The notes: generated by a model not told the origin, from the letters alone. DNA of 54,784 nucleotides from a virus (IMGVR_UViG_3300022932_000095:1-54784); one strand, 5' to 3'; shown: positions 3,408 through 54,784, counted from the stretch's first letter. Program-made: numbers and translations.

Positions 3408-4325
3408 ATGTCAGATAAAAACATGTCTATACCAGTAATTGATGATAATCAAATCTTCATTCAGTTGTTTGAGAAACAGGTGGCTCTTACACCGGGGAAT
3501 ATTGCCCTTGTGTCAGGAGGCGAATGTATTACATACCTTGAGTTAAATAATGCAGCTAATCGTCTTGGCCATTTTTTAAAGGCCAGAGCGGTTCAGGAAG
3601 AAAGCCTCGTACCTGTGTGCCTGCAGCGCTCTCCCCGGCTGCTGATCACTATACTGGCCATTTTAAAAACAGGTGCAGCTTATGTACCCGTTGATCCGGA
3701 ATATCCGGCAGATTACATCCGTTTTTTACTGGAAGATACCGGTTCGGAATTATTAATAACTGACCATTCGTATAGAGAACAGTTACAGCCATTTGTTAAA
3801 ACATGCATTGACTTAGATACATGTAGTGAAGCAATTGCTGCGGAGTCTGGTGAAAATGTAATGAATATGCTTACATCCGGCAATCTGGCCTATGTTATTT
3901 ATACTTCGGGTTCTACAGGTAAACCAAAAGGGGTAATGATAGAACATGGGAACCTGATGAATTACCTGGCTAACTGTATAAAGTATTATGTAGATAAAGA
4001 TGCAGCAGGCCCTGGAAGTTATTTAAACCTGCCGGGTACGTTTGATGCATCCGTCACTTCTATGTTTGTGCCTTTGTTAACGGGTACTTCAGTAGTACTG
4101 GCTCCGGCAGAAATTGCAGAAATGTTCAGAAACGGTTCATTCAGTCAGGATAAGGCATACCAGTTTTTAAAAATGACCCCCTCACATCTTCAATTGTTAA
4201 ATGAAGCAACCGGCAGCAGCAGACAGGGCTTGACTAAAAGACTTATACTTGGTGGGGAAGCCCTTCAGTATAGCCAGCTTAAATTTTTAGGTAACTATAT
4301 ACGAGTTGGTACAAATATAATATGA
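3408..4325 (+). pseudogene. NRPS adenylation-domain gene truncated at 4289 by the IS1595 element
   Basis: TYLELN, LKTGAAYVPVDP, LAYVIYTSGSTGKPKG, FDASV, ILGGEAL. Similarity stops before the YGPTE motif, and the last 11 codons (GNYIRVGTNII) are read from the IS end. Confidence 0.9.
4290..4312 (+). repeat. IS terminal inverted repeat (transposase-distal end)
   Basis: 17/23 inverted match to 7717-7739; identical copy at 54675-54697. Confidence 0.85.
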
Positions 4326-4350
4326 AAACCGGGTTAGATGCCCGGTTTTC
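4324..4350. terminator. Hairpin inside the IS end, probable intrinsic terminator
   Basis: GAAAACCGGG-ttagatg-CCCGGTTTTC perfect 10-bp stem; second copy at 54709-54735 just downstream of the major capsid gene. Confidence 0.7.
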
Positions 4351-4665
4351 AATGTTTAAAATACTTATATTTATGACATTTACATTATTAGGGTATAGGA
4401 TTACTTTCAGAAAAGAGGATAAGAACTTAAGAAAAAGGCAATTAATGCTAAACGAAACATCCAGGATGATTTCGGAGTCGTTCAGAAAATTCAGAGAAGG
4501 TAAAAATAGTCTATCTCTATAATATTATGACATTTAGAATATTCAACATATTAATCATCATTAGAAGATACCCTAGCAGTAAGCAACTAGCGGAGAACCA
4601 AAAAAGGCTTTTTGAATTAAAAAAAATGATATTCAGTCAGGGCTCGTCTCAGACATGATTTTTCA

Positions 4666-4693
4666 AAAAAGCCGACACTTGGCCGGCTGTTAT
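4666..4693 (-). terminator. Intrinsic terminator of the cargo operon
   Basis: AAAAAAGCCGAC-actt-GGCCGGCT just past the stop of 4700-5257; U-tract on the minus strand. Confidence 0.6.
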
Positions 4694-4699
4694 TGTTGT

Positions 4700-5257
4700 C
4701 TAAAATCTATAACCCAAGCCAAATGTGGCTTTATTATAGTTGTCGTATCCTATGTTAATGCCTACGTGTTTTGTCGCACGCACGTCAATAAAACATCCGC
4801 CAAATAATTTCTCTGACTCATGATGGGATGTACTATACAATCCCATTATATTGTTGTATGCGTTTTTGTAATTTATCTTGGTGCTAGAGCCAAGTCTACC
4901 TCCAATAGCCACACGTCCAAGCCTGTACCCTAAAGAGGCGTAAACGCCACCATTATTAGACACGCCTGTTTCATACACATCCTCAGGGAATGGATCATAA
5001 ATAGTTCCGTTATAACTTTCTCCATAAGCTCCTTTGTTTTTTAACGGCAACATTAATCCTATCCCAAAAAGAAAACCATTGTTGAAGTTCTTGTCGCTGT
5101 TATTCAGCACCTCCAAGCCTATTTCCCCACCGAAATTAGACGCGGTTCCGTAAATGCCTGTTAATGAGAATTTAAATTGTTTTCTAGATTGAGCTTGCAA
5201 TTGAGTAACTGAGAAAATAGTGGTTGCTAGAAATAATATGTAGAATTTTCTGTTCAT
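4700..5257 (-). CDS. Secreted outer-membrane beta-barrel-like protein (IS cargo)
   Basis: Signal peptide MNRKFYILFLATTIFSVTQLQAQ (start moved to 5257), alternating beta-strand pattern, C-terminal GLGYRF. Confidence 0.7.
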   Translation of the reverse strand: MNRKFYILFLATTIFSVTQLQAQSRKQFKFSLTGIYGTASNFGGEIGLEVLNNSDKNFNNGFLFGIGLMLPLKNKGAYGESYNGTIYDPFPEDVYETGVSNNGGVYASLGYRLGRVAIGGRLGSSTKINYKNAYNNIMGLYSTSHHESEKLFGGCFIDVRATKHVGINIGYDNYNKATFGLGYRF

Positions 5258-5301
5258 TGTTTTTGTCGTATTTAGGGTATATATAATTATTGTCAAATCA
5301 T

Positions 5302-5856
5302 CTAAAATGATTCTTGTTTGTATTTCATTGATTTTTTAAGCGAAGATATCATTAACTCACTCTGCTCTTTTATAGAGGCCAATATAACCCTGCTTATTCT
5401 CTTTGTATACATCTTCCTGTTTCCTGTTTTTTCTCCTAGGATATTACAAATTAATTCAGATGGCATAAAGTCGCCAATTACGTCCGAATTAAGAGCCATA
5501 TCGTATATTTTATACCTATATCTATTGTCTTTACATTCTATTTGAATAGTAATCATGTCACGACATGTATTTGTTCCGGTCATACTGTTATAGTAAACAG
5601 GTATAGATCCTTTGCCTATTATCTTTCCTTCCTCTTTATCTTCGTTCTGGATTACGTTTTTAGAGTTTTTAAACGAATCAATAAACCACTGTTTGCCGTT
5701 TTTATAAAGATCATCTTTACTCATTTCTGGCACATGAACCACTCCCTCATAAACTATATCGTTATCTTTGAATGGTAAGTTTATCCCAGACGTATCTTTT
5801 TGGGCATAAGAATTTGCAGCCATAAATATGCTGCATGTAATAACTAGAATTTTCAT
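5302..5856 (-). CDS. Secreted DUF4468-like protein (IS cargo)
   Basis: Signal peptide; MSKDDLY..KQWF...VIQNEDKEEGKIIGKG...IECKDNRYRYKI is typical of this Bacteroidetes family. Confidence 0.7.
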   Translation of the reverse strand: MKILVITCSIFMAANSYAQKDTSGINLPFKDNDIVYEGVVHVPEMSKDDLYKNGKQWFIDSFKNSKNVIQNEDKEEGKIIGKGSIPVYYNSMTGTNTCRDMITIQIECKDNRYRYKIYDMALNSDVIGDFMPSELICNILGEKTGNRKMYTKRISRVILASIKEQSELMISSLKKSMKYKQESF

Positions 5857-5885
5857 TTTTTTGTCGTATTTGGGTTTTAAATTAA

Positions 5886-6021
5886 ATGGCGTGGACTGAT
5901 ATATCTATATGCCACCCAGGGTTACGACGCCCCACCAAGACACAAAGAAACAGCCACGCCATGACAGCGTACTATTATGCTTTGTATTGTCTTGGTGCCT
6001 TTCTGTCGTAATTTGGGCAGC
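5886..6021 (-). ncRNA. Structured leader / antisense-type RNA upstream of the cargo genes
   Basis: Pairings ATGGCGTGG/CCACGCCAT, CCCAGGGTTACGAC/GTCGTAATTTGGG and CACCAAGACACAAAG/CTTTGTATTGTCTTGGTG. Confidence 0.6.
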
Positions 6022-6049
6022 AATACTAAACGTAGTACTATATCTTAAC

Positions 6050-6160
6050 CTACTTATTAGGTTTTTCTTCTTTCACAGATGCTTTAATCACCTCGTTAAA
6101 AGATCCTTTTATTTTTAGCTTGTAATCATTCTTTTTTGGTTTTGGTTTATCTTTTTTCAT
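6050..6160 (-). CDS. Small basic protein, 36 aa (MKKDKPKPKKNDYKLKIKGSFNEVIKASVKEEKPNK)
   Basis: Hand translation; co-oriented downstream of the transposase. Confidence 0.45.
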   Translation of the reverse strand: MKKDKPKPKKNDYKLKIKGSFNEVIKASVKEEKPNK

Positions 6161-6224
6161 TCCTTAATTTTTCAAAGTTATTAAATATTCAGTATATTTA
6201 TCATTATGAAAAAATTAAAGATAT

Positions 6225-6473
6225 TTATTTACCGCTTAAAAGGTCTCCTAGGTCTAAATCCTTTAGTGATACGTATAGATCAGATAAAATTACCGATCGT
6301 GCTTTATCGGAAATCTCAGAAAACATCTTAGTGTTTTCTTCATAGCTTTGACCATTGTTGATGTTCTCAATAAGGAACGTATTTTGAGCTGTAATCGCTA
6401 TGTGCGTTTGTACAGTTAGGATAAGGATAGCTTTGATCGTATCCCTAAGTCCATTGATTTCTAGTTCTTCCAT
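6225..6473 (-). CDS. Hypothetical protein (IS cargo)
   Basis: ATG ORF directly downstream of the transposase. Confidence 0.55.
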   Translation of the reverse strand: MEELEINGLRDTIKAILILTVQTHIAITAQNTFLIENINNGQSYEENTKMFSEISDKARSVILSDLYVSLKDLDLGDLLSGK

Positions 6474-6500
6474 AATATTTTAGTTTTTGTTTAACTAAAC

Positions 6501-7493
6501 TTATGAAATTAATTGCTTATACGTAAGTCTACTGTTCGAATTTGATAACGCATCACAAAATCTTTCTGAATCAGACAAACCACGTGTATTGTAACGATAG
6601 GTGAACTCATGGCAATACCTGCTGAGGTGTTTTGAACTAGTAAAATGATATACGCCAATAATACCACGTTTCAGTAGACTCCAGAACCCCTCTATTGTGT
6701 TGGTATTGTCCTCTCCGACTGTTATGTAGTTTCCATTGGTGTGCTTGATGGATGTGTGGGTGAATTTTTTTGATAATCCCCTATATGAAGGGTAAGCATC
6801 GGTTACTATTTTTGTTTTAGACTGGACAGAAGAGTTTATTATAGATTCAATTGTGTATGATGATGTATCTTTTGCAACAGAACAATATACCTTGCCGTGT
6901 TTAATTACGACTTTTTCTTTGACTTTACGGCCTTTTATTACTTTGTGATCTCTTTCTATGTATTCAATCACCTGCTTTTGAGCTACGCCTACAACAGGGG
7001 TTTTGTCTGATGGGCTTCTACCCTGAGAGCCTTCTATTTTCTTATTATCATGCCTGTTTTTATTCTTTCCACCAATATAGGTTTCATCTACTTCAACTAC
7101 ACTATCCAGCATCTCAGGAGCATTGTTAACTAACATGTGTCTTATTCTGTGCAAGAGAAACCAGGCTGTTTTCTGGGTTATATTTAGGTCACGACTCAAC
7201 TGTAAACTTGATATACCCTTTTTATGAGAGGTAGCTAAATAAATAGCAGCAAACCAATACCTTAGAGGTATTTTTGTATTTTCAAATACAGTGCCAGTAG
7301 TCACCGTGAATTTTTTACGGCATCCTTTATCCTTGCATTTAAAACCCCTATTGGTTACGTAAGAGCCCACAGTACCACAATGAGGGCAGCAAGGAGAGGA
7401 ACCCCATCTTTGGTACGCCAGGTAATCCACACATGTTGGCTTTTCTTTGAAGTGGTCAAGTAAATGTATTAGGCTTTTAAAATTCGTTGTCAT
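6501..7493 (-). CDS. IS1595-family DDE transposase
   Basis: Zn ribbon CPHCG..CKDKGC, HTH region KGISSLQLSRDL..TQKTAW, VEVDETYIGG, IVTDAYPSY, NTIEGFWSLLKR..HLSRYCHEFTYRYN. ORF is intact. Confidence 0.95.
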   Translation of the reverse strand: MTTNFKSLIHLLDHFKEKPTCVDYLAYQRWGSSPCCPHCGTVGSYVTNRGFKCKDKGCRKKFTVTTGTVFENTKIPLRYWFAAIYLATSHKKGISSLQLSRDLNITQKTAWFLLHRIRHMLVNNAPEMLDSVVEVDETYIGGKNKNRHDNKKIEGSQGRSPSDKTPVVGVAQKQVIEYIERDHKVIKGRKVKEKVVIKHGKVYCSVAKDTSSYTIESIINSSVQSKTKIVTDAYPSYRGLSKKFTHTSIKHTNGNYITVGEDNTNTIEGFWSLLKRGIIGVYHFTSSKHLSRYCHEFTYRYNTRGLSDSERFCDALSNSNSRLTYKQLIS

Positions 7494-7494
7494 A

Positions 7495-7662
7495 TTACCT
7501 CTGTCTTGATGCTTGTAATTCTATATTTTTACTTATCTTCTCTATGTGATCAGACAATATAACATCTGTACCATTGGTGTGGTTGTCTAAATGCTTCATT
7601 AGTATAATCAACCCGGTTAGTAGTCTGTACAGCTCTTTGTCGCTAAGTTTTATTACTTTCAT
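7495..7662 (-). CDS. Hypothetical 55-aa protein upstream of the transposase
   Basis: Hand translation MKVIKLSDKELYRLL...; its stop lies 1 bp before the transposase ATG. Confidence 0.5.
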   Translation of the reverse strand: MKVIKLSDKELYRLLTGLIILMKHLDNHTNGTDVILSDHIEKISKNIELQASRQR

Positions 7663-7716
7663 ATCCAAATGTATTCATCATATTAATACTAAAAGTACGG
7701 TAAACCGTAAACACAA

Positions 7717-7739
7717 GTCCCATCACATATATAAATACC
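7717..7739 (-). repeat. IS terminal inverted repeat (transposase-proximal end)
   Basis: Inverted match to 4290-4312. Confidence 0.85.
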
Positions 7740-7794
7740 TAAAATTAAAAAATATACCTTTTGCACTTCGTAACATTATAGTTACCTTTAACAT

Positions 7795-7941
7795 ATGGAA
7801 GTGAAATATTTAAGACCACACAATGGAAATAATATAGGGGACACTGAAAATGTACCTGATGATATTGGTAAATATTTAATTGTTCCTGGAGTAGCTAAGG
7901 AAATTATCGACAAGAAACCAAAAGGGGGCCATAAAAAATAA
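7795..7941 (+). CDS. Small head-associated protein, 48 aa
   Basis: Hand translation MEVKYLRPHNGNNIGDTENVPDDIGKYLI...; TAATG overlap with the connector gene; usual post-capsid position. Confidence 0.65.
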   Translation: MEVKYLRPHNGNNIGDTENVPDDIGKYLIVPGVAKEIIDKKPKGGHKK

Positions 7942-8387
7942 TGGATGCTTTATCTGTCATATCTCTGGCTGATGCTAAAGAGTATTTAGTAGTTGATTTC
8001 CCTGATAAAGACAAGGAGATAACCAGGCACATAAAGTCTGCTGTAGCCATTGTTGAGAAATATACTGATTACAGACTTTATCAAAGAGAGATATCTTATT
8101 CCATTGGTAGATGTGGATATGATGAAATATATGACTACCCGATTTTATTCCCAAGTGATACGATTACCGAACAAAGAATTTTAAGTTCCATAGTCAGAGG
8201 TGTACCGGGATCAATAGTCACCGCAACAGTAGGATACTCGGATACAACGTTAATACCAGAAAACCTAATAGATGCCTGTTATAAAATAATAACATATCTA
8301 TTTGAGAATAAAGACGTATATGAGGCTGATTTACCATCTGATGTGCAATTGTTAATAAACCAATTTAGAAGAAACGCAACTATATAG
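7941..8387 (+). CDS. Head-tail connector (HK97 gp6 / SPP1 gp15-like)
   Basis: ISLADAKEYLVVD..I..AVAIVEKYT..IPENLIDAC..IITYLFENK; synteny. Confidence 0.85.
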   Translation: MDALSVISLADAKEYLVVDFPDKDKEITRHIKSAVAIVEKYTDYRLYQREISYSIGRCGYDEIYDYPILFPSDTITEQRILSSIVRGVPGSIVTATVGYSDTTLIPENLIDACYKIITYLFENKDVYEADLPSDVQLLINQFRRNATI

Positions 8388-8389
8388 CA

Positions 8390-9085
8390 ATGGCAAAACC
8401 TACAAAATCATTTGATAATAAATATCATTACGATAGTGGAAGGCTGAGGCATAAAGTACAGTGTTTAATTGACGTGGTGACTGATGATGGGTATGGTGGA
8501 TCTTTTGTTTCCAGCAGCCTAGTTATTCAAACTTGGGCAGGCAAAGAGGAGGTTAGTCAGTATACGCAATCAGGATTGAATGCAGGGCAAACACAATATA
8601 ATTACTATCAGTATTTCATCATCAGAAAGCGTAACGGGTTCACGCCAAGGAAGGATATTAATTTGGTTTTTGAAGGTAAATTGTACATTATACAGAGCGT
8701 AAAAGAGATGGACGATCCATGTAACTTCTTAAGGTTACTTTGTGTCGCCCAAGAGGATCAAATAATACTGAGTGGCATTATTTATGCTGGCGGGTCAACT
8801 TTTGTACCAATAGATGAGGCTGGAGTTAAGTCCCTGTCTTATAATTTCACCAATCAAAGTACTGATTTTACATTCAATACAGGTCTCAATAGAATATTTT
8901 CAATAGCGATGAAAAATGACAGGTCAATCATTAGTGTTTACGATCAAACATCTGACGAAGACGTCACCGGCCTTTACATCAAAGGCTCTCCAATTGTAAT
9001 TGATGGGCTTGAATACGATATATATACAATGCAGAATGCAGTAGAATTTACAACGGCACATAACCACAGAGTAAAATTATCATAA
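8390..9085 (+). CDS. Head closure protein (SPP1 gp16-like) with C-terminal extension
   Basis: GRLRHKV..DDGYGG..WA..FIIRKR..YIIQSV in the first ~125 aa, then ~105 extra residues. Confidence 0.75.
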   Translation: MAKPTKSFDNKYHYDSGRLRHKVQCLIDVVTDDGYGGSFVSSSLVIQTWAGKEEVSQYTQSGLNAGQTQYNYYQYFIIRKRNGFTPRKDINLVFEGKLYIIQSVKEMDDPCNFLRLLCVAQEDQIILSGIIYAGGSTFVPIDEAGVKSLSYNFTNQSTDFTFNTGLNRIFSIAMKNDRSIISVYDQTSDEDVTGLYIKGSPIVIDGLEYDIYTMQNAVEFTTAHNHRVKLS

Positions 9086-9522
9086 TGGCAAAAGAGGTAT
9101 CAGAGCGCATAAAATTAAACAACCCCGGGAATATTGATTTCTGGTATGGGCCCTATGCAAGTTTGGCGACTGCAAACATAGTAGTACCTAAATCAGTAAG
9201 ACAAGGTAAAACCGTATGTATTATGGCTACTGAGTACTGGTGGAGATACGGAGTAGAGGATTCTGATTTAACGCTAAAAAATTCAGGCGCAACAGATATA
9301 TCAGCATTGGTGTTTAACGAAATTCCTTCTGGCTTAATTAACGCCACTAATACCGAGTATACGACTGCGTCTTCATTCATACCAGAAAGTGTAGTCGTAA
9401 AATCTAATGGGATGACATTAAAACCTATAGACGAATACGTTACAATAGGAGACAATAAAATACAATTAACATTTTCACCGCAAATAGGTGAATTAATATT
9501 AGTAGACTATATAAAGGTATAA
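9085..9522 (+). CDS. Putative virion appendage protein
   Basis: C-terminal beta domain EIPSGLINATNTEYT..NG..DEYV..LVDY, shared with the next gene. Confidence 0.55.
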   Translation: MAKEVSERIKLNNPGNIDFWYGPYASLATANIVVPKSVRQGKTVCIMATEYWWRYGVEDSDLTLKNSGATDISALVFNEIPSGLINATNTEYTTASSFIPESVVVKSNGMTLKPIDEYVTIGDNKIQLTFSPQIGELILVDYIKV

Positions 9523-9525
9523 AAA

Positions 9526-10353
9526 ATGGCATCATCACAAATAAGGACGCGTCAAATTGCTGACGGAGCGATAACAAAAGAGAAAATACCAGCTGGAGCA
9601 GGAGTAGAGACATCTAAACTAGCTGACGGATCGTTATTTATTAAAAGTGATGGTTCTGTGTCTATGACAGGCACATTTAACGCCGGTAACTTTAACTTTA
9701 GCAATCTATTACAGGCTACACAAGCGGGTCAGGCAGTTGAGTATACACAATTACAAACCGCTTTATCGAATCTTAATAGCATGTTTTCGAGCAAGCAACC
9801 AGTCAGAGCTGCCTCTACTGCTAATGTGACTATAGCAACCCCGGGAACAACGATAGATGGGGTAACGCTGACGTCAGGTGACCGAATATTGCTTAAAGAT
9901 CAAACGACACCATCTCAGAACGGTATTTATGTGTTTAACGGCTCTACTTCTGCGCTAACAAGATCGACAGATTTTGATCAATGGACAGAAATACCTGGAG
10001 CTACAATTCCTGTCACGGAGGGAACAGTCAATGCGGATATTATATACCTATCAACTGCAAATGGAGGTGGTACTATTGGGACTACAGCGATTACGTTTCA
10101 ATCAGTAGGAGTCTCAGCTGGATTGCAAAATTCAAATTTTGTAGATAAAGAAATACCATCCGGTGCAATTAATGGTAGCAACACCACTTATACGTTAGCA
10201 AATACACCGGTATTGGGATCTGAGCACCTTTATTTGAATGGTGTTTTACAGGAAAGTGGATCAGGTAACGACTATACAATTTCAGGCGCAACAATCACGA
10301 TGCTAACAGCAATGTTATCAGGTGAAAAAATTAGAGTTAGCTACAGAAAATAA
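9526..10353 (+). CDS. Putative fibre / collar-type virion protein
   Basis: VRAASTANV..IDGVTL..GDRILLKDQT..QNGIYV domain seen in phage fibre proteins; C-terminal EIPSGAINGSNTTYT. Confidence 0.65.
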   Translation: MASSQIRTRQIADGAITKEKIPAGAGVETSKLADGSLFIKSDGSVSMTGTFNAGNFNFSNLLQATQAGQAVEYTQLQTALSNLNSMFSSKQPVRAASTANVTIATPGTTIDGVTLTSGDRILLKDQTTPSQNGIYVFNGSTSALTRSTDFDQWTEIPGATIPVTEGTVNADIIYLSTANGGGTIGTTAITFQSVGVSAGLQNSNFVDKEIPSGAINGSNTTYTLANTPVLGSEHLYLNGVLQESGSGNDYTISGATITMLTAMLSGEKIRVSYRK

Positions 10354-10357
10354 GGCT

Positions 10358-12023: not shown

Positions 12024-12024
12024 T

Positions 12025-44805: not shown

Positions 44806-44807
44806 CA

Positions 44808-45457: not shown

Positions 45458-45589
45458 AAAGCCCTTGTGAAGTACTGGTGTCGTTAATGCTTTCAAAGGG
45501 CAATTATAAACGAGTCGGCATACGGAGAAGTAAGGTGCCCTGTATTAACAGGGCAGTATTATAGTAAAACATGAGAGCGTTTAATTGAG

Positions 45590-45621
45590 ATAGGTGTTGC
45601 TGGATGGCGCACCTATTTTTT
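45590..45621 (+). terminator. Intrinsic terminator before the portal promoter (TACATTTG 45648-45655)
   Basis: ATAGGTG..CACCTAT-TTTTT. Confidence 0.65.
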
Positions 45622-45658
45622 GTTTTGTCTTTGTGTAACAAATCAGTTACATTTGTTT

Positions 45659-47008: not shown

Positions 47009-47012
47009 TCGG

Positions 47013-47681: not shown

Positions 47682-48181
47682 GATTTCCCTTTCTTTATAT
47701 AATATACGCTGGTTTTGGTGACAAAATATATAGAGGCTATATAAGATACAGAGTGACCTTCTGAAATCATTTTTCTAATATTAATCACATCAGAAGCACA
47801 CAGCTTACTTCTTGGATTGTCGGATCCCTTATTTGATTTTATACCACTCCTGAAAGAGTGATTTACGTTTTCCTCTCTAGTACACCATGAGAGGTTATTT
47901 AATTTATTGTTATTTACATCACTATCTATATGGTTTACCTCTGGCTTACCTAGTTCATTTAATAAAAAAGACATAGCTACTAACCTATGTACTAAGAATT
48001 GTTTATTACTACCGTTGCTATATAATCTAACAGAATGGTAGCCTCTTGGCATTATCAAATGCTTTAATAACCTTGATCTGACTACGCCTAATCTGGGCAG
48101 GCTTTTTATGTTTCCGTAATCACTAACCTGATAAAGACCTTCATATCCAATTACATCTTTCCATATTTCGTTACTATCCAT
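47666..48181 (-). CDS. NUMOD4-HNH homing endonuclease-like protein
   Basis: EIWKDVIGYEGLYQVSDYG, VHRLVAMSF, VNHIDSDVNNNKLNNLSWCT..EN..H. Confidence 0.92.
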   Translation of the reverse strand: MDSNEIWKDVIGYEGLYQVSDYGNIKSLPRLGVVRSRLLKHLIMPRGYHSVRLYSNGSNKQFLVHRLVAMSFLLNELGKPEVNHIDSDVNNNKLNNLSWCTREENVNHSFRSGIKSNKGSDNPRSKLCASDVINIRKMISEGHSVSYIASIYFVTKTSVYYIKKGKSWIHI

Positions 48182-48572
48182 TTTTCACCTCCAGTTCTTG
48201 GCCTGTAAGACAGAAGTATAAGTTTTGCAATTGATGGACGTATTGAATATCTAAATTCAACTGGTGCTCACTATATTGATCGACAATATAAACCCATGGT
48301 TTAACACCTGTAACAACATGAAAATTTTCAGTAGGATGATCGAAATACCCTGTTTTTTCTCCAGAAGAATTTAAGAAAGCGAAAAAACCAAAATGCAACA
48401 ACCATTCATCTGTTATAGGCACTGGGGAAAGTTCATCTAAAGTGAATTCGTCACTATGACTAACCATAGTGACATAACCATGAGCGCCGTCTATTAAATC
48501 AACAATACCAATTGAGTTAAACCACCAATTAAATTTTATTATATTCCCGATTCTTAATTCTTGTATATTCAT
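48174..48572 (-). CDS. Conserved hypothetical phage protein (paralogue of 35338-35730)
   Basis: ELRIGN..PVPITDEWLLHFGF..VHQLQNLYFCLTGQEL. Confidence 0.75.
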   Translation of the reverse strand: MNIQELRIGNIIKFNWWFNSIGIVDLIDGAHGYVTMVSHSDEFTLDELSPVPITDEWLLHFGFFAFLNSSGEKTGYFDHPTENFHVVTGVKPWVYIVDQYSEHQLNLDIQYVHQLQNLYFCLTGQELEVKNG

Positions 48573-48602
48573 ATGTTGCCAATTATTTTATAGGGATATT
48601 TA

Positions 48603-48788
48603 TCATATTTGACCCTGTATTTTAATGCCGTTTTTATGAGCTATAGAGAAGAGGCGATTCTGAATATCATGAATATCTCTTGCTGTCTCCTGTTCATCGG
48701 CTGGATGTTTGTCGGTTATAGAGACAATAGTGTTCCAAAGATCGACAGTCAAATCCATTGCCTTATTTAATTCTTGTTCATTTTTCAT
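48603..48788 (-). CDS. Hypothetical protein
   Basis: ATG ORF downstream of a minus-strand TAAATTTG box (48809-48816). Confidence 0.55.
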   Translation of the reverse strand: MKNEQELNKAMDLTVDLWNTIVSITDKHPADEQETARDIHDIQNRLFSIAHKNGIKIQGQI

Positions 48789-49188
48789 ATTTCTAATATT
48801 AATTTATACAAATTTAGTTTATTGATTTTTTAATAAAAACTCAGCTATATGATGTGATATGTATCCTACGCACGTTCCAACTATGAACGCCATTAATAAG
48901 CTACCATTTTGCTTTATTGCCGGATGAATTAAAAACATTGTCACAAATAATATTGACAACGACAATGATAAGTGCTCTATTCTGTTTTTCATAATGTTAA
49001 TATTTATTAATGTATTTTGCTATTCGAAATGACATATGAAACAATACCGCTCCAACTAAAAACTTAGTCAATAGTCCGCCTATATGGTTAACATCCATAT
49101 AATATAAAATAATCATCAAAATGACATGGATAAGGATTACGTAAAAGATATGGTATTGTTTCATAATTCAAACTTAATCAATTAACAT

Positions 49189-49476
49189 TTACTGTTTTGT
49201 AACATTGTCGTTGCCTGGTTCATAATATTCAATGTATGCTTCTACATTTCGATCCTTGACTTTTATTTTGACAGGGCCCATGTGGAGAATCACCTTTCCG
49301 TCAAGGGACAAATACCGAACTGCATTGTCGTTGTCTTGACTCATACTTACCCTGCTAAGTAAACCAAAATAATCATCTGATTTACAGTCGAAACCGTTCT
49401 TTAATAGACATGTTTCTATTACTTGTTGCATTCCGTCTTTGATGTTTACGTCTACATCTATTGTTAATTTTGCCAT
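49189..49476 (-). CDS. Hypothetical protein
   Basis: Directly follows the GT gene. Confidence 0.6.
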   Translation of the reverse strand: MAKLTIDVDVNIKDGMQQVIETCLLKNGFDCKSDDYFGLLSRVSMSQDNDNAVRYLSLDGKVILHMGPVKIKVKDRNVEAYIEYYEPGNDNVTKQ

Positions 49477-49477
49477 A

Positions 49478-50788
49478 TTATATTTGTTTTAATCTCCATT
49501 GTTTAAAGGCTGGGTTGTCGTGAAACAAATTCCTTCCATATTTATTATTGAATCTGTCACAGTGCGCCCAAGTCAAATTATCTCTTTCTTCTTGGTTGGC
49601 TCTATTTAAAGTCTCAGACCCAAGATGTGTAACGAATGAATTGACAACAAGCATTGGATCAACACCTAGCTCAGAACACTTCTCAATAGTGCTGTTGTCG
49701 GCGAACCAGAACGGGAAACATTCATCAAATCCGCCTATTTCATCAAACAAGCATCGCTTTATCATAAAGGCCCACCCGCTGAAATTTCTTCCACATTTGA
49801 CTCCTATTTCATTTTCAGTTATACATTTTTGCCTGTAATCATTGGGGCATTTAGGAGATACAAGTGGATATCCAGCAATAAGTAACTGATGAAGCCACCC
49901 GCTGTGAAACACTAAATCATTGTTACATATCATTATCCACTCAGCAGACCCTTTACGTGCTCCTATGTTTGAAAATTGGTTGTAGTTGAAGGGGCAATCT
50001 ATGTAATGCGTTGTAGCGTTTCTATAATTTTCTATCTCTGTGTTCTGCTCGATAACGATAATATTTACCGGCAAAGAATTAGCTCCAGCCAAGCATGAGT
50101 TTATAGCATTCTGAGTCATCCTGTACATTCTTGCATCTTTTGCGAACGATAAAAACACAATATCTACTACAGGAGTCTGATTTCTTACTCTGATGTTCGG
50201 AGACAAATGAGCTTGTGTCTCTGTTGTATCCGAATTAAAGTCATAAAAATATAAAACCTTATCAATTACGAATTCAGTCTTTAGATTCGGTAAAAGCAGC
50301 TTACTATATGCAGAATCTTCACCATATGCTATACCGGGGAAACTTGACTTTAATGATACTTCTCTCTTAATGCAAGGTATGTGATTGGGTATTCTATAAT
50401 AAGCTTCATCGGTATTGTAATCACGGTTAAACTCTTTACTGTAGTAGCAAGGCTTTGGATCTCCACCATTAAGCGATACCATGGCCGTGAAAGATACGCA
50501 GTCTGCATCCGAATGAGTGGCATCAAGTAGCGATTTAATATAATCATCACTTATCCTATCATCATCATCAACAAAGGCAATATATTTCCCCTGTGCAATG
50601 TCAACCATTTTATTTCTTTTTTCGCCCAGGGTAATTTTCTTGTTGTCTGTTAAGATAATAATCTCAACTTGATTCTGATCGAACTCTGACAGAGAATTGT
50701 ATTGACTAAATATTTGTTCTTGTATTTTAGGCAAGAACGTGTTGTATCTGGTATGTGTTGAAGGTATTAATATAGATAGTTTTATCAT
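49478..50788 (-). CDS. Two-domain glycosyltransferase (tandem GT2-like)
   Basis: Domain 1: LSILIPS..LGEKRN..YIAFVDDDD..GED. Domain 2: VDIVFLS..FNYNQFSNIG..ICNND..IGGFDE..WFAD. Confidence 0.9.
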   Translation of the reverse strand: MIKLSILIPSTHTRYNTFLPKIQEQIFSQYNSLSEFDQNQVEIIILTDNKKITLGEKRNKMVDIAQGKYIAFVDDDDRISDDYIKSLLDATHSDADCVSFTAMVSLNGGDPKPCYYSKEFNRDYNTDEAYYRIPNHIPCIKREVSLKSSFPGIAYGEDSAYSKLLLPNLKTEFVIDKVLYFYDFNSDTTETQAHLSPNIRVRNQTPVVDIVFLSFAKDARMYRMTQNAINSCLAGANSLPVNIIVIEQNTEIENYRNATTHYIDCPFNYNQFSNIGARKGSAEWIMICNNDLVFHSGWLHQLLIAGYPLVSPKCPNDYRQKCITENEIGVKCGRNFSGWAFMIKRCLFDEIGGFDECFPFWFADNSTIEKCSELGVDPMLVVNSFVTHLGSETLNRANQEERDNLTWAHCDRFNNKYGRNLFHDNPAFKQWRLKQI

Positions 50789-50793
50789 TTCAA

Positions 50794-52136
50794 TTAAGAT
50801 GTCTTACTTGCGTGAATATCGTTGTGGTTTCCTCCTGTGTCAGTCGTGAAAATGTTAAATACACCTCTTAACACAACATCCTCCTCTGACTTTAAGCATA
50901 ATCCTATAATTTTTCTACCTAGTAATTCCGCTAAAGGAGAACCAAAAACATATTTAGTATTATCCCTGTTATTTTCTTTTTCCTGTTCAACCAGCCCTAT
51001 TAACCGGACAATTTCGTAGTGATGATAGTTTATGTGAGATAATATTTGGTTCCCAACAGCACGATGTAAAAGCTTCCTATGTTTTGATATTTCCTGATTT
51101 AGTTCTTGAATGGTTTTCATTTCTTCTTTTTTATGTTACTAACATCAACAACATGAGTACCTGGATGATGGTTATAGACTATTTTCTTGTTTTTATTATT
51201 AGGGTCTAACTTCTTGCCTTTAGATTCGTGCCCTATATGATTGCAGTTACAATCTGGACAATGATATGCAACAAGACGACGGCCTCCTAATTTGTTCATG
51301 CTTACTGCTGCCCTTCCTGCTTCCTCTTTGGTGTCGTATTTAGTTTTACCTGAACATTGGTTTTCGGATCTTATCATTTCGGTTTATATATTTTGAATAT
51401 CCACGAGGATGAATCGTATTCGTAATTATTTTCTATGCAGAATAGTATAAGAGCGTCACGAATATCATCAGAAGATGCTATGGTTTTAAAAATATAATCA
51501 TTAGAAATACTAAAGCATTCGCTAATTTTCAGGATATAGCCATCAGTCATAGTCCTTTTCAGCCGAATTTTTATTTTGTCTTCATCTTCTATTTTTAATT
51601 ACATCTAGTAAAATAAATACTTTCTGGAATATTGATACCCAACGCACAATCATTCTTAACTCCAGTTTCATTTATTGAAGTCAATTTATCCACTTCGATC
51701 CAATTCCTGGCTGTTAAAGGTAAGTTTGACGCATACATATCATGGTATGAAGCCATGCAATTAGATATTACAGAACCAAATTCTCTATGCATCCTTTCTC
51801 TGAAATAATACACCTGTTTATTCCTTTCTTCTGCCATCATAATTTCATGTTTCTTTTTTGAAGTTACATCTTTCACATTACTTTTCTGTAATTTGTAAGA
51901 CCCATAAACCACTACTAAGACTAAAAAAACTTGTATCATATAAATTAATTTAAATCTATTAAACCCAACATTGTAGCTTTACACTCATTCTTATTCGGCA
52001 GCCTACCATATCTTAAGTAGAATTTATTAAGACCGCTATAACTTATATTATTTGATGATACGAATAATGATATTGATTCCTCGCTCATTGAAGTTATTCT
52101 TTTTATTTCTGATATTAAATATTCGAATTCTATCAT
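50794..52136 (-). other. Small hypothetical genes (50794-51120, 51117-51377 with C..K..YHCPDC..H Zn motif, 51595-51939, 51945-52136)
   Basis: Coupled minus-strand ORFs. Confidence 0.65.
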
Positions 52137-52137
52137 G

Positions 52138-52335
52138 TTATTGGATTTTTTTCCATATTTCCACTCTGTTTATTTCGTAGCCGAATTTTTTCATAAAACG
52201 TTCTATAGTCTGCCATTTAGCTGCTCCAGACTCAATGTTGCGTATCGTATGGGTATACGTGCTCTGTGGCATACCGGCCTCTATGTAAGGCTTAGTCCTA
52301 CCTTTTATTTCGCTTAATGCCTCTTTTAAAACCAT
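52138..52335 (-). CDS. XRE/Cro-like HTH protein heading the inverted island
   Basis: AGMPQSTY..IRNIESG..WQTIERFMKKFGY. Confidence 0.6.
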   Translation of the reverse strand: MVLKEALSEIKGRTKPYIEAGMPQSTYTHTIRNIESGAAKWQTIERFMKKFGYEINRVEIWKKIQ

Positions 52336-52418
52336 GAAACAAATGTGCATTTAAATATTTAAATATGCAAATAATTTATTTGTATCATTTTTGTTACGTT
52401 ATGCGTACTTTTACCACA

Positions 52419-52550
52419 ATGAAGCAATCAAAGGAAAAAACAGAGGCAGAAAAAACAATTGAAAAGTTGAAAGAAAAGTCTTTACCTAAAGAGGCTCAGG
52501 AGGCTATCCGTAAAAAACAAGTCTACATAAACAGAGAGGTAAACAAATGA
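52419..52550 (+). CDS. Small basic protein
   Basis: ATGA-coupled to the protease gene. Confidence 0.5.
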   Translation: MKQSKEKTEAEKTIEKLKEKSLPKEAQEAIRKKQVYINREVNK

Positions 52551-53374
52551 TATTCTGTAAAGAACTAGGTAAATCTTTCGACACCAAAGAATTGATGTTT
52601 AAGGAGATTAAAAAAAATCTACCTGAAATTATTCGTTTAAAAAAAGAACAGGTTTACGAATCCAGGAATAAAGGTGTTGGAGTCTCTTTACATATACTAG
52701 ATAACTCTAAGTTAGCTACATCTACAGGAAAGGTAAGTTTTGAAACTGATGACGATCATTATTATATAGCAGTAAACACCTGTTTAGTTTTAGACTCTCA
52801 TGGTGACCTGCATGACGAAAATTGCTGGAATGATAGCGTAGTAACTGAGCAAGGTAAAAATTACCTGGTTTTAGACCACGTTCTATCTGTATTAAATACA
52901 GTTGTTAAAAAGGCTTACATAGAGCAGTTTGTGGCGACTATACCCTTTGCCTCAGTTGGTAAAAATTACACAGGTGACACACAAGCGTTGATATATAAGT
53001 TCAGAAAGGACTCTGTTATAAATCAAATAGCTAAAGACTGGTTAGAATCAAATGACGACATAGAGGCTTCTGTTAGAATGATGTATGATGACATTGAATT
53101 TGCACTGGATAGTAACGATCCAGATTATAGGGACTTAAAAACCTTGTATGATTCGTATTTCCCAAAGATAGCTAACAGCTCTGATTTTGAGTATATACCA
53201 TACTTTTTCATTGTAAAAAAAGCAACAAACGTTCGTGAAAGCTCACTGGTTCTTGCAGGCAGTAACCCGGCAACAGGGCCGATAATCATAACTATACCGG
53301 AAGAACAGAAAAATATTGACCCGCTACAGAGCAGTCAAAAACAAAAATCAAATTTTTACACACTTATTCATTAA
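52547..53374 (+). CDS. Prohead protease-like protein
   Basis: LDSHGDLH, LVLDH, ASVRM, ESSLVLAGSNPAT; directly upstream of the capsid gene. Confidence 0.8.
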   Translation: MIFCKELGKSFDTKELMFKEIKKNLPEIIRLKKEQVYESRNKGVGVSLHILDNSKLATSTGKVSFETDDDHYYIAVNTCLVLDSHGDLHDENCWNDSVVTEQGKNYLVLDHVLSVLNTVVKKAYIEQFVATIPFASVGKNYTGDTQALIYKFRKDSVINQIAKDWLESNDDIEASVRMMYDDIEFALDSNDPDYRDLKTLYDSYFPKIANSSDFEYIPYFFIVKKATNVRESSLVLAGSNPATGPIIITIPEEQKNIDPLQSSQKQKSNFYTLIH

Positions 53375-53377
53375 AAA

Positions 53378-54670
53378 ATGGACTTGAAAAACTTCAAAGT
53401 GCTTTCTAAAGACCAATACGACGCTCTGTCAGAAAGGGAACAAGTAAAGTACGAAATTCAACTTGAATCCTTTAAGGAGCAAGAACAATTAAGAATCGCC
53501 AAAGAAGCTGCCACATCAGCAGTAGAAGCGGTTAGAGCAGATCTAATTAAAGAAAATAAAGACTTATTAGAGCAGCTTACAAAAGATAACGCAGATAAAC
53601 TGAAAGAACTTTCTGAAAAGCACAAGCTTGACATGGAAGAATTGGAAGTTGCTTTAAAGCGAAATAAGATTGCAGACATCGGTAATCGTATGAAAGGTTT
53701 TTCTGAGCATATCGTTGAAAAACTTTCTACAGAGGATGGTGAAAACATGCTCAAGAGCTTTTTCAAAGGACAGCGTGAGGCTTTAAACCTTGATGTAGAT
53801 GCAGATGCTCTAAAAGCTCCAATTAGCGTACCGGCTGGTTCTGTTGCTCCAGAGTTCTTGCCTATTGTTGGGCCTGGTCACGATGATATTCATGCAAGAA
53901 ATGCTATTCCCGTATTCCCTACTATAGCGGATGTTGTTAAATTTGTTCAATTCACTACTACGAATCCTACAGCTGGATTTGCTACAGTTGGAGTGGGGCA
54001 AGCTAAACCCGAATTAGCATATGTGTCTGCTTTAAGAGAGGCACCTGTTCGTAAAATTGCAGGTTGGCTGGATATTCCTGACGAGGTTATGGACGATGTT
54101 GCCGGATTCAGAGCGTGGATCGCGTACGAGCTTCCAAAAGCCTATCTAGATGCAGAAGATTACATGTTCTTTAAAGGTTCAGGTACTGGAATTAATATTC
54201 TAGGGTTATGGACTCAGGCGGGTACTCAAACTTTACCTTTCGGATCGGTAACAGACTTATCTAATGAGTGGGATAAATTAATGGCTGCCATTACTGAGAT
54301 TAGAACCAAAAAGCGTGCTACATCAGCAGCTTTTGTATCGCCCTTATTCTATATGGAATTATGGATTAACAAGGGTACTGGTTCAGGAGAATATACTTAC
54401 CCTATCGTTATGGGTGACAATGGTGTGCTTTACGTAGGCGGAGTTCCGATCTACTGGAGTAATGTTTTTGTTAACTATGAGGGCTTGGTTGGTGATTTCG
54501 CTAGAGGCGCATCAATCCACCAACGTAAAGCAATGAACATTGCTTATTCTGCTGAGAACAAAGATAACTTTATTACAAATATTGTTACTATCCGTTTAGA
54601 GGGTCGTGTTGCGTTAGCAATCAGAGTTCCTGAGGCTTTCTTAAGATTAAGAGACACGCTTACCTCTTAA
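53378..54670 (+). CDS. Major capsid protein (HK97 fold, N-terminal scaffold domain)
   Basis: Coiled-coil N-terminus, VRKIAGW..EVMDD, LVGDF, F..N.VTIRLEGRVALAIRVPEAF. Confidence 0.93.
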   Translation: MDLKNFKVLSKDQYDALSEREQVKYEIQLESFKEQEQLRIAKEAATSAVEAVRADLIKENKDLLEQLTKDNADKLKELSEKHKLDMEELEVALKRNKIADIGNRMKGFSEHIVEKLSTEDGENMLKSFFKGQREALNLDVDADALKAPISVPAGSVAPEFLPIVGPGHDDIHARNAIPVFPTIADVVKFVQFTTTNPTAGFATVGVGQAKPELAYVSALREAPVRKIAGWLDIPDEVMDDVAGFRAWIAYELPKAYLDAEDYMFFKGSGTGINILGLWTQAGTQTLPFGSVTDLSNEWDKLMAAITEIRTKKRATSAAFVSPLFYMELWINKGTGSGEYTYPIVMGDNGVLYVGGVPIYWSNVFVNYEGLVGDFARGASIHQRKAMNIAYSAENKDNFITNIVTIRLEGRVALAIRVPEAFLRLRDTLTS

Positions 54671-54784
54671 TTTAGGTAACTATATACGAGTTGGTACAAA
54701 TATAATATGAAAACCGGGTTAGATGCCCGGTTTTCAATGTTTAAAATACTTATATTTATGACATTTACATTATTAGGGTATAGG
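54671..54784 (+). repeat. 114-bp direct repeat, copy 2 (start of a second IS1595 end at 54675, cut by the window end)
   Basis: Identical by eye to 4286-4399. Confidence 0.97.

What the first reader, a model, noticed from the sequence alone, without database searches (positions are those of the whole stretch)
4286..54784. Integrase-less phage apparently inserted in a host NRPS gene as an IS1595-flanked cointegrate
Seen: the NRPS A domain is broken exactly at an IS1595 terminal repeat (4290). A full IS (4290-7739) is followed by an entire phage permuted at the capsid/neck boundary, and the same IS end restarts in direct orientation at 54675. The unit length is 50,385 bp. I recognised no tyrosine or serine integrase, Mu-type transposase, att core, CI-type repressor or ParA in the phage. 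Established: replicative transposition of an IS resident on a circle gives target-IS-donor-IS-target, and recombination between the two copies regenerates the circle. Inference: this phage may use its IS1595 DDE transposase in place of an integrase, and could excise by recombination between IS copies, possibly using its YqaJ-type system. Caveat: an assembler could produce the same string by walking through an IS present both in the chromosome and on a free phage circle.
Basis: partly seen in the sequence, partly recalled or inferred. Interest (0 to 1): 0.92.

Follow-up and report, generated by a model that had tools for sequence, protein, structure and literature searches.

The report
Shared insertion sequence joins host and phage
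A 3.45-kb jumping gene sits, letter for letter the same, both in a soil bacterium's peptide-synthetase gene and in a 47-kb phage, and the assembled contig runs from one to the other through it, so the apparent "phage inserted in the host" may be only an assembly path.

Summary
An IS1595-family element (4290-7739, 3,450 bp) carries a transposase and three passenger genes. It cuts an NRPS adenylation domain exactly at 4289/4290. A complete, integrase-less siphovirus genome follows, permuted at the capsid/connector junction. The contig then re-enters the IS for its last 110-114 bases.

The window is a whole metagenome contig, so no second full IS copy and no right-hand host flank are seen. An independent k=31 assembly of the probable source run breaks exactly at both IS ends. 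Depths are NRPS 6.6-8.4, IS 24.2 and phage 16.8. IS = host + phage is predicted equally by two separate copies and by a cointegrate. Reads shorter than 3.45 kb cannot tell them apart.

- All 6 relatives (5 viral-contig loci plus one chromosomal prophage) lack the IS.
- Two complete relatives are free circular assemblies without an integrase.
- One relative is a classical prophage with a tyrosine integrase at the tmRNA gene.
- No lysogeny gene was recognised in the window's phage.

Best reading (about 0.62): a cargo IS shared by a free phage and its Mucilaginibacter-like host, threaded together by the assembler. A real cointegrate stays possible (about 0.27). An IS transposase serving as the phage's integrase is unsupported. 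This scan noted the same host-IS-phage pattern once before on other DNA.

The parts
3..3398 (+). Host NRPS gene, 5'-truncated by the contig end: end of an A domain, FkbM-type methyltransferase, carrier domain, condensation domain
   Evidence: Pfam: PF00668 3e-103, PF00501, PF05050, PF00550. X1 contig depth 8.4.
3408..4289 (+). Next NRPS gene: adenylation domain cut after Pfam AMP-binding position 307 of 384. The open frame runs on into the IS to 4325.
   Evidence: PF00501 9e-52, profile positions 1-307/384. Contigs of X6 and X7 (about 96% identical) continue beyond 4289 for 225 nt, then reach a stretch like 393-493 (the end of the upstream A domain). That is the intact allele.
4282..4289 (.). 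AATTTTTA: the 8 bp of NRPS next to the IS, the expected target duplication if the host copy is a simple insertion
   Evidence: Sequence. A related IS in a bacterial genome has a perfect 8-bp duplication. The right-hand host flank is not in the contig.
4290..7739 (-). IS1595-family cargo IS, 3,450 bp
   Evidence: X1 contig of 3,454 nt covers exactly 4286-7739 at depth 24.2. It overlaps its neighbours by 30 nt, so there are branches at both ends. IRs. No DNA similarity to any of 6 relatives.
4290..4312 (+). Left terminal inverted repeat (GGTAACTATATA...)
   Evidence: The same 12-nt terminus bounds a 3,242-bp relative in genome G287, which has 37-nt perfect IRs and an 8-bp duplication.
4323..4351 (.). 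Strong two-way hairpin terminator inside the IS left end. In the phage context it lies just after the capsid gene.
   Evidence: 11-pair stem followed by a T-rich tail.
4700..5296 (-). Passenger gene: 198-aa secreted protein, outer-membrane-barrel-like by eye (signal peptide, C-terminal ...YRF)
   Evidence: Translation. No Pfam or PHROG match. The function is inferred from the sequence only.
5302..5856 (-). Passenger gene: secreted DUF4468 protein
   Evidence: PF14730 8e-16; phrog_4002 1e-26.
6225..6473 (-). Passenger ORF, 82 aa, unknown function
   Evidence: ORF list. No family match.
6501..7493 (-). IS1595-family DDE transposase with N-terminal zinc ribbon, 330 aa, intact
   Evidence: PF12762 7e-36 and PF12760 3e-6. 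Nearest relatives are 55-71% identical, and 11 of the 12 rows among the best 120 that name an organism say Mucilaginibacter. The exact protein is on this contig only.
7717..7739 (-). Right terminal inverted repeat (GGTATTTATATA... read inward)
   Evidence: The X1 IS contig ends at 7739.
7740..54674 (+). Complete siphovirus genome of 46,935 bp, written from connector gene to capsid gene (circularly permuted)
   Evidence: Gene order matches relatives. Complete relatives are 47.3 and 51.5 kb. X1 phage contig depth 16.8.
7941..8387 (+). Head-tail connector gene, the first phage gene after the IS
   Evidence: PF05135 1e-4. 44-60% identical in all 6 relatives, next to or near their capsid gene.
32499..33152 (+). 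Recombination exonuclease (RecE/Cas4/YqaJ type)
   Evidence: phrog_149 5e-30, phrog_434 6e-17.
36335..39962 (+). Replication genes: helicase (36335-37771) and primase-helicase (37773-39962)
   Evidence: phrog_16 7e-85, phrog_15962 3e-107.
40931..47008 (+). Packaging genes: small terminase (40931-41458), large terminase (41512-43041), portal (45620-47008)
   Evidence: phrog_51, phrog_979, phrog_12.
53378..54670 (+). Major capsid protein gene. Its stop codon lies 4 bp before the IS end.
   Evidence: PF05065 5e-25. In X1 the loose end before 4286 reads the last 30 nt of this gene.
54671..54784 (+). TTTA plus the first 110 nt of the IS left end, seen a second time. The contig ends here.
   Evidence: 100% repeat of 4286-4399.

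Best explanation
A 3,450-bp IS1595-family cargo IS (transposase plus three passenger genes, two of them secreted proteins) is present in two places in the sampled community. One copy is in the chromosome of a Bacteroidota host (Mucilaginibacter-like, judged from the transposase relatives), where it interrupts an NRPS adenylation domain. The other is in the genome of a 47-kb siphovirus, 4 bp after the capsid stop codon. That slot is variable and non-essential; relatives keep other cargo there.

The two copies are identical, so the assembly graph has one IS node with two entrances (NRPS, capsid end) and two exits (connector, and presumably the rest of the NRPS). The assembler walked NRPS -> IS -> once round the phage circle -> back into the IS and stopped.

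On this reading the phage is a free replicon (2.0-2.5 times the host's depth), and the host-phage join is a path through a repeat, not a molecule.

Shown: the IS, its exact ends, the two left contexts, the depths, the intact NRPS allele elsewhere, the whole phage, and the lack of any integrase.
Inferred: that the second exit is the NRPS remainder, that host and phage copies lie on separate molecules, and that the IS moved between phage and host recently (identical copies).
For: 1. The window is a complete metagenome contig. The 'second IS' is only its last 114 nt. Complete relatives end in 123- and 127-nt overlaps of the same kind, the signature of circular assembly.
2. In the k=31 contigs of X1 the IS is its own 3,454-nt contig (4286-7739) overlapping both neighbours by 30 nt. 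A loose end before 4286 reads the capsid gene's end. Depths are 8.4/6.6 (NRPS), 24.2 (IS) and 16.8 (phage). So there are exactly two left contexts, and the phage is more abundant than the host locus.
3. The IS is foreign to the phage lineage. 0 of 6 relatives have an IS1595 transposase at that site (tblastn; PF12762 for 4 of them). No DNA similarity to the IS was found. 3 of 6 have the capsid and connector genes 18-90 bp apart. The other 3 carry 2.4-4.7 kb of unrelated minus-strand cargo there.
4. No sign of lysogeny. No tyrosine or serine integrase and no rve transposase. No repressor, excisionase or partition family was found among the 49 different window ORFs put to PHROGs or the 10 early ORFs put to Pfam at E<=0.1. 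Complete relatives G404 and G405 are free circular assemblies with no integrase.
5. The element is an ordinary member of its IS group. A 3,242-bp relative in a bacterial genome has the same GGTAACTATATA termini, its own passenger ORFs and a perfect 8-bp duplication.
Against: 1. The phage-side flanks (TTAATTTA / TAAAATTA) match at only 6 of 8 positions. A relative of this IS and ISApl4 (PMC12561309, passages read) make clean 8-bp duplications. A simple recent host-to-phage hop is therefore not enough. A further event is needed, such as an IS-mediated adjacent deletion, or else the phage copy is the older one.
2. If the phage copy is older, the identical host copy came from the phage, and the recipient cell survived. 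That is easier to explain if the phage can reside in the cell.
3. Only two left contexts were listed, so the host seems to hold this IS at the NRPS site only. That is what a phage-delivered IS would give.
4. The depth relation fits a cointegrate equally well.
5. The published contig does join NRPS to phage, and I could not see what evidence its assembler used.
Confidence: 0.62

Rival explanations
1. Real cointegrate. In at least part of the host population the whole phage circle is inserted in the NRPS gene between two direct IS copies (NRPS-IS-phage-IS-NRPS). It could form by replicative transposition of the phage-borne IS, or by a single homologous crossover between the phage's IS and a chromosomal copy. 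Recombination between the two copies releases the circle, leaving one IS in the NRPS. Free circles account for the extra phage depth.
For: - The contig as assembled has this order.
- With h = host depth and f = free-phage depth, the model predicts IS = 2h + f and phage = h + f. That gives IS = host + phage, as observed.
- The phage copy lacks a clean 8-bp duplication (6 of 8). IS1595-family copies inside pseudo-compound transposons also lack their own duplications (PMC12561309, passages read).
- The host seems to have no other copy of the IS (one alternative left flank listed).
- The phage encodes a RecE/YqaJ-type exonuclease.
It is unchecked and equally ambiguous.
Against: - No datum spans the 3.45-kb IS. 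The second copy and the right flank are not in the contig.
- Every graph and depth feature is equally expected from separate copies.
- No repressor or other maintenance function was recognised.
- Relatives are either free circles or use a tyrosine integrase.
- Two 3.45-kb direct repeats would make such an insert unstable (established knowledge of homologous recombination; inference).
Confidence: 0.27
2. Evolved strategy. This phage lineage has replaced an integrase by the IS1595 transposase and lysogenises by transposition, a Mu-like lifestyle built on a different DDE family.
For: - Integrase-less phage with an intact DDE transposase.
- The IS sits in a harmless slot, and its end supplies the only strong terminator after the capsid gene.
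- The depth sum leaves no room for a large IS-free phage fraction in this sample.
Against: - 0 of 6 relatives carry the IS.
- The transposase's relatives sit in ordinary IS copies in bacterial chromosomes, with their own ends and duplications.
- The IS ends enclose only 3.45 kb, not the phage, so the phage is cargo only in a cointegrate.
- Only 5 of 50,697 deposited phage records match this transposase, the best at 38% identity.
- No Mu-type A/B genes (PF00665 not found).
Confidence: 0.05
3. Pure artefact.
For: Metagenome contigs can be chimeric. The source assembly could not be inspected (searches found nothing).
Against: An independent k=31 assembly of X1 shows the capsid end running into the IS left end, and the IS right end overlapping the 23-kb phage contig. 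The IS depth equals host plus phage, not host alone.
Confidence: 0.03

Closest known systems
IS1595-family insertion sequences with passenger genes ('transporter IS'; Siguier, Gagnevin & Chandler 2009, seen only as a reference-list entry in PMC12561309, content recalled)
   Same: DDE transposase with PF12762 plus an N-terminal zinc ribbon, GG-initiated terminal inverted repeats, and passenger genes between the ends. A close relative makes an AT-rich 8-bp duplication.
   Different: This copy sits in a phage genome, with an identical copy in a host gene. Its passengers (secreted DUF4468 and barrel-like proteins) are not shared with the relative examined.
ISApl4 / Tn7560 pseudo-compound transposon of the IS1595 family (PMC12561309; abstract and passages read)
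   Same: Two direct IS1595-family copies flanking cargo. Copies in such structures lack their own 8-bp repeats. Recombination between the copies releases a circle carrying one IS.
   Different: There the cargo is four resistance genes (5.8 kb) in a closed genome. Here the 'cargo' would be a whole 47-kb phage, and the second copy is not shown to exist.
Repeat-induced path ambiguity in short-read assembly graphs (general knowledge)
   Same: A repeat longer than the read or insert length with two entrances and two exits. The contig ends where it re-enters a node already used. Relatives show 123- and 127-nt terminal overlaps from circular assembly.
   Different: The 114-nt overlap is not at both contig ends, because 4.3 kb of host DNA precedes the circle.
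Mu-like transposable phages
   Same: A phage with a DDE transposase and no site-specific integrase.
   Different: No rve-family (MuA-type) transposase. The transposase's ends bound a 3.45-kb IS, not the phage genome. Relatives lack the IS.
Related prophage in genome G571, integrated at the tmRNA gene
   Same: Same structural module (large terminase 66%, portal 65%, capsid 53% identity; connector right after capsid).
   Different: It has a tyrosine integrase (PF00589, 34.8 bits), 22-nt att repeats 53.9 kb apart and a tmRNA-gene target, and no IS1595 transposase anywhere in the genome. Its non-structural genes are unrelated to the window's.

Membership tests
IS1595 family insertion sequence | DDE transposase of the ISXO2/IS1595 type with N-terminal zinc ribbon | tested here: met
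   PF12762 7e-36 (124 bits, cut-off 27) and PF12760 3e-6 (27.4 bits, cut-off 25.4). Found again by six-frame search.
IS1595 family insertion sequence | Terminal inverted repeats at the exact ends of the mobile unit | tested here: met
   17 of 23 positions matching, starting GGTA. The ends coincide with contig breaks at 4286/4290 and 7739 in X1, and with the point where the intact NRPS allele departs (4289). The same 12-nt terminus is in a relative.
IS1595 family insertion sequence | 8-bp target-site duplication | tested here: inconclusive
   Host copy: only the left flank (AATTTTTA) is in the contig. Phage copy: TTAATTTA versus TAAAATTA, 6 of 8. A relative in G287 has a perfect AGTATTTT duplication.
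IS-flanked cointegrate / pseudo-compound transposon | Two complete direct copies of the IS flanking the inserted replicon on one molecule | tested here: inconclusive
   Only 110 nt of a second copy, at the contig's end. Graph and depths fit both models.
IS-flanked cointegrate / pseudo-compound transposon | The same 8-bp target duplication outside the two IS copies, with resumption of the target gene | not testable with these tools
   The right host flank is absent from the contig. Scans of metagenome contigs found nothing.
Temperate phage with site-specific integration | Tyrosine or serine recombinase gene | tested here: not met
   PF00589, PF00239 and PF07508: 0 matches at E<=1 in six frames, with positive controls ringing.
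Temperate phage with site-specific integration | att core repeats at the phage/host junctions | tested here: not met
   The only long direct repeat is the IS end itself. The relative G571 does have 22-nt att repeats.
Mu-like transposable phage | rve-family (MuA-type) transposase, with transposon ends at the ends of the phage genome | tested here: not met
   PF00665: 0 matches. The IRs bound 3.45 kb only.

The most novel reading that the evidence does not exclude
An integrase-less siphovirus of a Sphingobacteriia-like host resides in the chromosome as a Campbell-type insert bounded by two direct copies of its own IS1595-family cargo IS. It enters by replicative transposition or IS-IS homologous recombination, and leaves by recombination between the copies. 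The IS thus gives an otherwise non-integrating phage a route to facultative lysogeny and seeds the host genome with the IS.
Probability: 0.25. Interest if true: 0.75.

Novelty: new member of a known kind. Interest (0 to 1): 0.4.

Why it matters
As it stands, the finding is a clean case of one cargo-carrying IS shared, base for base, by a phage and its presumed host.

- It links an uncultivated phage to a host lineage.
- It shows recent IS traffic between phage and chromosome. Phages are reported to tolerate IS elements poorly and to be unlikely shuttles for them (Leclercq, Gilbert & Cordaux 2012, PMC3429520, abstract read).
- It is a warning for provirus calls in viral catalogues. A host flank on a viral contig can arise from a walk through a shared IS.

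If the join proved physical, it would be a natural example of IS-mediated lysogeny by a phage that has no integrase. That would be a new variant of known cointegrate biology and a new route for phage-borne IS spread.

Tried and rejected
- **Right host flank and source assembly.** An exact scan of metagenome contigs with the IS right end found 0. A degenerate scan for the NRPS codons just before the break found 0. Both answers warn that records of, or very near, the window's own genome may be left out. An exact scan of viral contigs with the capsid-gene end, to find an IS-free twin of the phage, found 0.
- **Naming the host through the NRPS.** Protein searches gave at best 56% identity (292-aa A-domain piece, proteins of 512-2000 aa only) and 49% (residues 150-700 of the first ORF, proteins of 1981-5000 aa only). 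The genome-contig scan gave at best 42% (Chitinophaga niastensis). Runs X6 and X7 hold an allele about 96% identical, but their names are coded.
- **Small shares.** Runs X2-X5 and X8 held small shares (0.05-0.12). X2, when laid, showed only 35-60-nt conserved NRPS pieces. Nothing is drawn from them.
- **Depth as a discriminator.** Rejected after working out that both models predict IS = host + phage.
- **Mutated duplication.** Two changes in the phage-side 8-mers while 3,450 bp of IS stay identical between the copies is unlikely, unless recombination homogenises the copies. Not resolved.
- **Left IS end as phage DNA.** I considered that it might really be the capsid gene's own terminator. Rejected: no relative has similar DNA after its capsid gene.
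- **Literature.** Three searches produced no paper describing phage integration through an IS1595-family element. This covers only the library searched and those terms. PMC9145550 mentions IS1595 only in host genomes.
- **Assembler behaviour.** Why the original assembler chose NRPS -> IS -> phage is not known. My recollection that metagenome assemblers drop low-coverage alternatives at a branch was not checked.
- **Supplements.** Supplementary files of papers were not consulted.

Full report
**What the window is.** The window is one whole IMG/VR virus record of 54,784 bp, classed 'linear', with a CheckV completeness of 91%. Whatever lies at its right end is therefore the end of an assembled contig, not a cut through a longer sequence.

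**The repeat.** The only long direct repeat is 4286-4399 = 54671-54784: 114 nt, 100% identical, spacing 50,385, running to the last base. The sequences diverge immediately to the left, AAATTTTTA|GG in the NRPS against CTTAATTTA|GG after the capsid gene. The 'second IS copy' is thus 110 nt of IS plus a shared TTTA. No full second copy and no right host flank are in the data.

**The host part.**
- 3-3398 encodes the end of an adenylation domain, an FkbM-type methyltransferase, a carrier domain and a condensation domain.
- 3408-4325 starts a new NRPS protein. Its AMP-binding domain stops at profile position 307 of 384.
- Contigs of two other public runs (X6, an isolate with a coded name; X7, a plant metagenome) carry this region at about 96% identity: 23 differences in 625 nt and 14 in 393 nt.
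- Those contigs run on past 4289 for 225 nt, then reach a stretch resembling 393-493, the end of the upstream module's A domain.
- That spacing is what an uninterrupted A domain requires. An intact allele therefore exists, and the break is at 4289/4290.

**The insertion sequence.**
- 6501-7493(-) encodes an intact 330-aa transposase with the IS1595 DDE domain (PF12762, 7e-36) and zinc ribbon.
- The ends are imperfect inverted repeats, GGTAACTATATACGAGTTGGTAC and GGTATTTATATATGTGATGGGAC, matching at 17 of 23 positions.
- A 57%-identical transposase in bacterial genome G287 lies in a 3,242-bp element. That element has perfect 37-nt repeats beginning with the same GGTAACTATATA, its own two passenger ORFs and a perfect 8-bp duplication AGTATTTT. 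The termini and the cargo habit are therefore features of this IS group.
- The window's element (4290-7739, 3,450 bp) carries three minus-strand passengers. These are a 198-aa secreted protein that looks like a small outer-membrane barrel (by eye), a secreted DUF4468 protein and an 82-aa ORF.
- The transposase's nearest relatives are 55-71% identical. Of the 12 rows among the best 120 that name an organism, 11 name Mucilaginibacter. The exact protein is known from this contig only.

**The phage.**
- 7740-54674 (46,935 bp) holds connector, neck, tail-tube, tape-measure and distal tail genes and a lysozyme-like hub.
- It holds a leftward block of small early genes, a RecE/YqaJ-type exonuclease, a helicase and a primase-helicase.
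- It holds a resolvase-like nuclease, small and large terminase, and portal.
- It holds a minus-strand glycosyltransferase island, two HNH endonucleases, and the capsid gene.
- Five viral-contig loci share the structural genes, with capsid identity of 57-87%.
- In L004 and L006 (=G404) the connector gene follows the capsid gene after 90 and 18 bp. The window's order, capsid ... [IS] ... connector, is therefore a circular permutation with the IS at that junction.
- G404 (47,327 bp) and G405 (51,536 bp) are rated 100% complete and end in 123- and 127-nt direct overlaps, that is, circular assemblies.

**The slot is a cargo hot spot, and the IS is foreign to it.**
- L003, L005 and L007 (=G405) have 4.6, 2.4 and 3.0 kb of minus-strand genes between capsid and connector. 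These include an adenylosuccinate-synthetase-like gene, a GIY-YIG/NUMOD3 endonuclease and small DUF5889/DUF7255-like genes.
- None of the six relatives (five viral loci plus the G571 prophage) has an IS1595 transposase there. This rests on tblastn, and on PF12762 searches of G403-G405 and G571.
- No part of 4286-7739 has DNA similarity to any of them. By contrast, 7794-7844 to the right of the IS matches L003 just upstream of its connector gene.

**No integrase.** Six-frame searches with PF00589, PF00239, PF07508 and PF00665 at E<=1 found nothing, while the control genomes rang. No repressor, excisionase or partition family appeared among the 49 different window ORFs put to PHROGs (50 entries in five calls, one of them already scanned only against Pfam). 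None appeared among 10 early ORFs put to Pfam at E<=0.1. Many small ORFs remain unassigned, so absence of lysogeny functions is 'not recognised', not 'shown'.

**The decisive graph evidence and its limit.** Run X1 (leaf-litter metagenome) holds all sampled words of 1-9000 and may be the source sample. Its independent k=31 contigs are:

| Region | Span | Length | Depth |
|---|---|---|---|
| NRPS | 223-3037 | 2,815 nt | 8.4 |
| NRPS | 3014-4315 | 1,302 nt | 6.6 |
| IS | 4286-7739 (exactly) | 3,454 nt | 24.2 |
| Phage | from 7710 | 23,334 nt | 16.8 |

- Neighbouring contigs overlap by 30 nt (k-1), so the graph branches at both IS ends.
- The one alternative entrance listed reads the last 30 nt of the capsid gene.
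- The NRPS contig passes 4289 without a break, so no intact NRPS allele is present in X1 at detectable depth.
- The alternative exit at 7739 was not among the rows shown.
- The depths obey IS = NRPS + phage: 6.6-8.4 + 16.8 = 23.4-25.2, against 24.2.

I first took this depth sum as a test and then rejected it. With separate copies, IS = h + p. With a cointegrate in all host cells plus free circles f, IS = 2h + f and phage = h + f, which is again h + phage. The depths do show three things. Every phage genome carries the IS. The host locus carries it in all cells. And phage genomes outnumber the host locus 2.0-2.5-fold, so free or replicating phage DNA exists either way.

**Target duplications.** The phage-side 8-mers are TTAATTTA (54667-54674) and TAAAATTA (7740-7747), matching at 6 of 8, which in AT-only sequence is unremarkable. 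A relative of this IS makes a perfect 8-bp duplication. ISApl4 of the same family makes AT-rich 8-bp repeats, except for copies involved in a pseudo-compound transposon or an inversion (PMC12561309, passages read). The phage copy is therefore not the product of one simple insertion. Either an adjacent deletion followed, which is plausible in a cargo slot of a size-limited genome, or the copy has a recombinational history. Because the 3.45-kb copies are identical, the exchange between phage and host is recent. If the phage copy is the older one, the host copy came from the phage. This is the strongest point in favour of some form of residence of the phage in surviving cells, and it is why I leave the cointegrate at about one in four.

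**A relative that integrates conventionally.**
- I sampled 401 genomes of the family of G287 with the portal protein. Six matched, one at 65% identity, in a 5.3-Mb contig of G571.
- That region shares large terminase (66%), portal, scaffold or protease, capsid (53%), connector (81 bp after capsid, no insert) and tail genes with the window.
- It is bounded by a 22-nt direct repeat at 2,662,869 and 2,716,747.
- The right copy overlaps the 3' end of the tmRNA gene.
- A tyrosine recombinase gene lies just inside (PF00589, 34.8 bits, cut-off 27.1).
- G571 has no IS1595-type transposase and no large serine recombinase.
- The lineage's structural module therefore also occurs in a classical temperate phage. 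The window's non-structural genes are unrelated to that prophage's: only a 23%-identical exonuclease matches.

**How common this is.** Only 5 of 50,697 deposited phage records match the transposase at E<=1e-5, the best at 38% identity. Leclercq, Gilbert and Cordaux report that phages tolerate IS elements less well than plasmids do, and are unlikely shuttles for them (PMC3429520, abstract read). Against that, notes from this scan list IS1595-type cargo elements in several other uncultivated phages. One earlier follow-up (e1-6087538) found the same situation on other DNA: a cargo IS of this family joining host DNA to an integrase-less 69-kb phage, with the join equally unresolvable. These are unchecked AI notes and not independent evidence. 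They suggest that sharing of such IS copies between phages and hosts, and host-flank artefacts or real joins arising from it, recur in these data.

**Verdict.** The physical cointegrate cannot be told from a graph walk with the data available, and the prior, the relatives and the absence of lysogeny genes favour the walk. The idea that the transposase stands in for an integrase is unsupported. What remains is a well-defined new cargo IS of the IS1595 family shared between a phage and its host, of moderate interest. A cheap decisive test exists: reads or PCR spanning 3.5 kb.

Noticed in passing
L008 / G406 (69,028-bp viral contig); L031 and L032 are its two ends: The contig ends in perfect 2,123-bp inverted terminal repeats that each contain an IS1595-type transposase gene. 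It also holds a third, 51%-identical transposase inside a roughly 4.2-kb element with 32-nt inverted repeats.
   Followed up: partly
L003:9967-11043 (-): A relative carries an adenylosuccinate-synthetase-like gene (PF00709, 7.5e-37) in the capsid/connector cargo slot. Phage homologues of this enzyme are recalled to act in 2-aminoadenine DNA synthesis, but this was not examined.
   Followed up: no
G571:C1:2662869-2716768: A 53.9-kb prophage related to the window's phage. It is integrated at the 3' end of the tmRNA gene, with 22-nt att repeats and a 391-aa tyrosine integrase.
   Followed up: yes
window 35338-35730 (+) and 48174-48572 (-): Two paralogous phrog_10066 genes of unknown function lie on opposite strands. 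Their 5' ends form a 38-nt, 84% inverted repeat 13 kb apart. They could mediate inversion of the segment between them.
   Followed up: no
window 47013-51939 (-): A minus-strand island with two glycosyltransferase genes (222 aa and 436 aa, the latter matching two-part GT families), an HNH endonuclease and small ORFs. It lies between the portal and scaffold/capsid genes. A related 228-aa GT is in G404, and GT matches are in G571.
   Followed up: no
window 44107-44148 and 44636-44677: Two copies (83% identical) of a 42-nt hairpin-forming element in the terminase-portal intergenic genes.
   Followed up: no
window 29949-30143 (-): A 64-aa ORF whose C-terminal half looks like a helix-turn-helix (by eye), at the head of the leftward early block. 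It is the only candidate regulator seen near the divergent early region and was not tested.
   Followed up: no
window 4323-4351: The only strong hairpin terminator downstream of the capsid gene lies inside the IS left end, 37 nt from its tip. In this phage, capsid transcription would end on IS sequence.
   Followed up: partly
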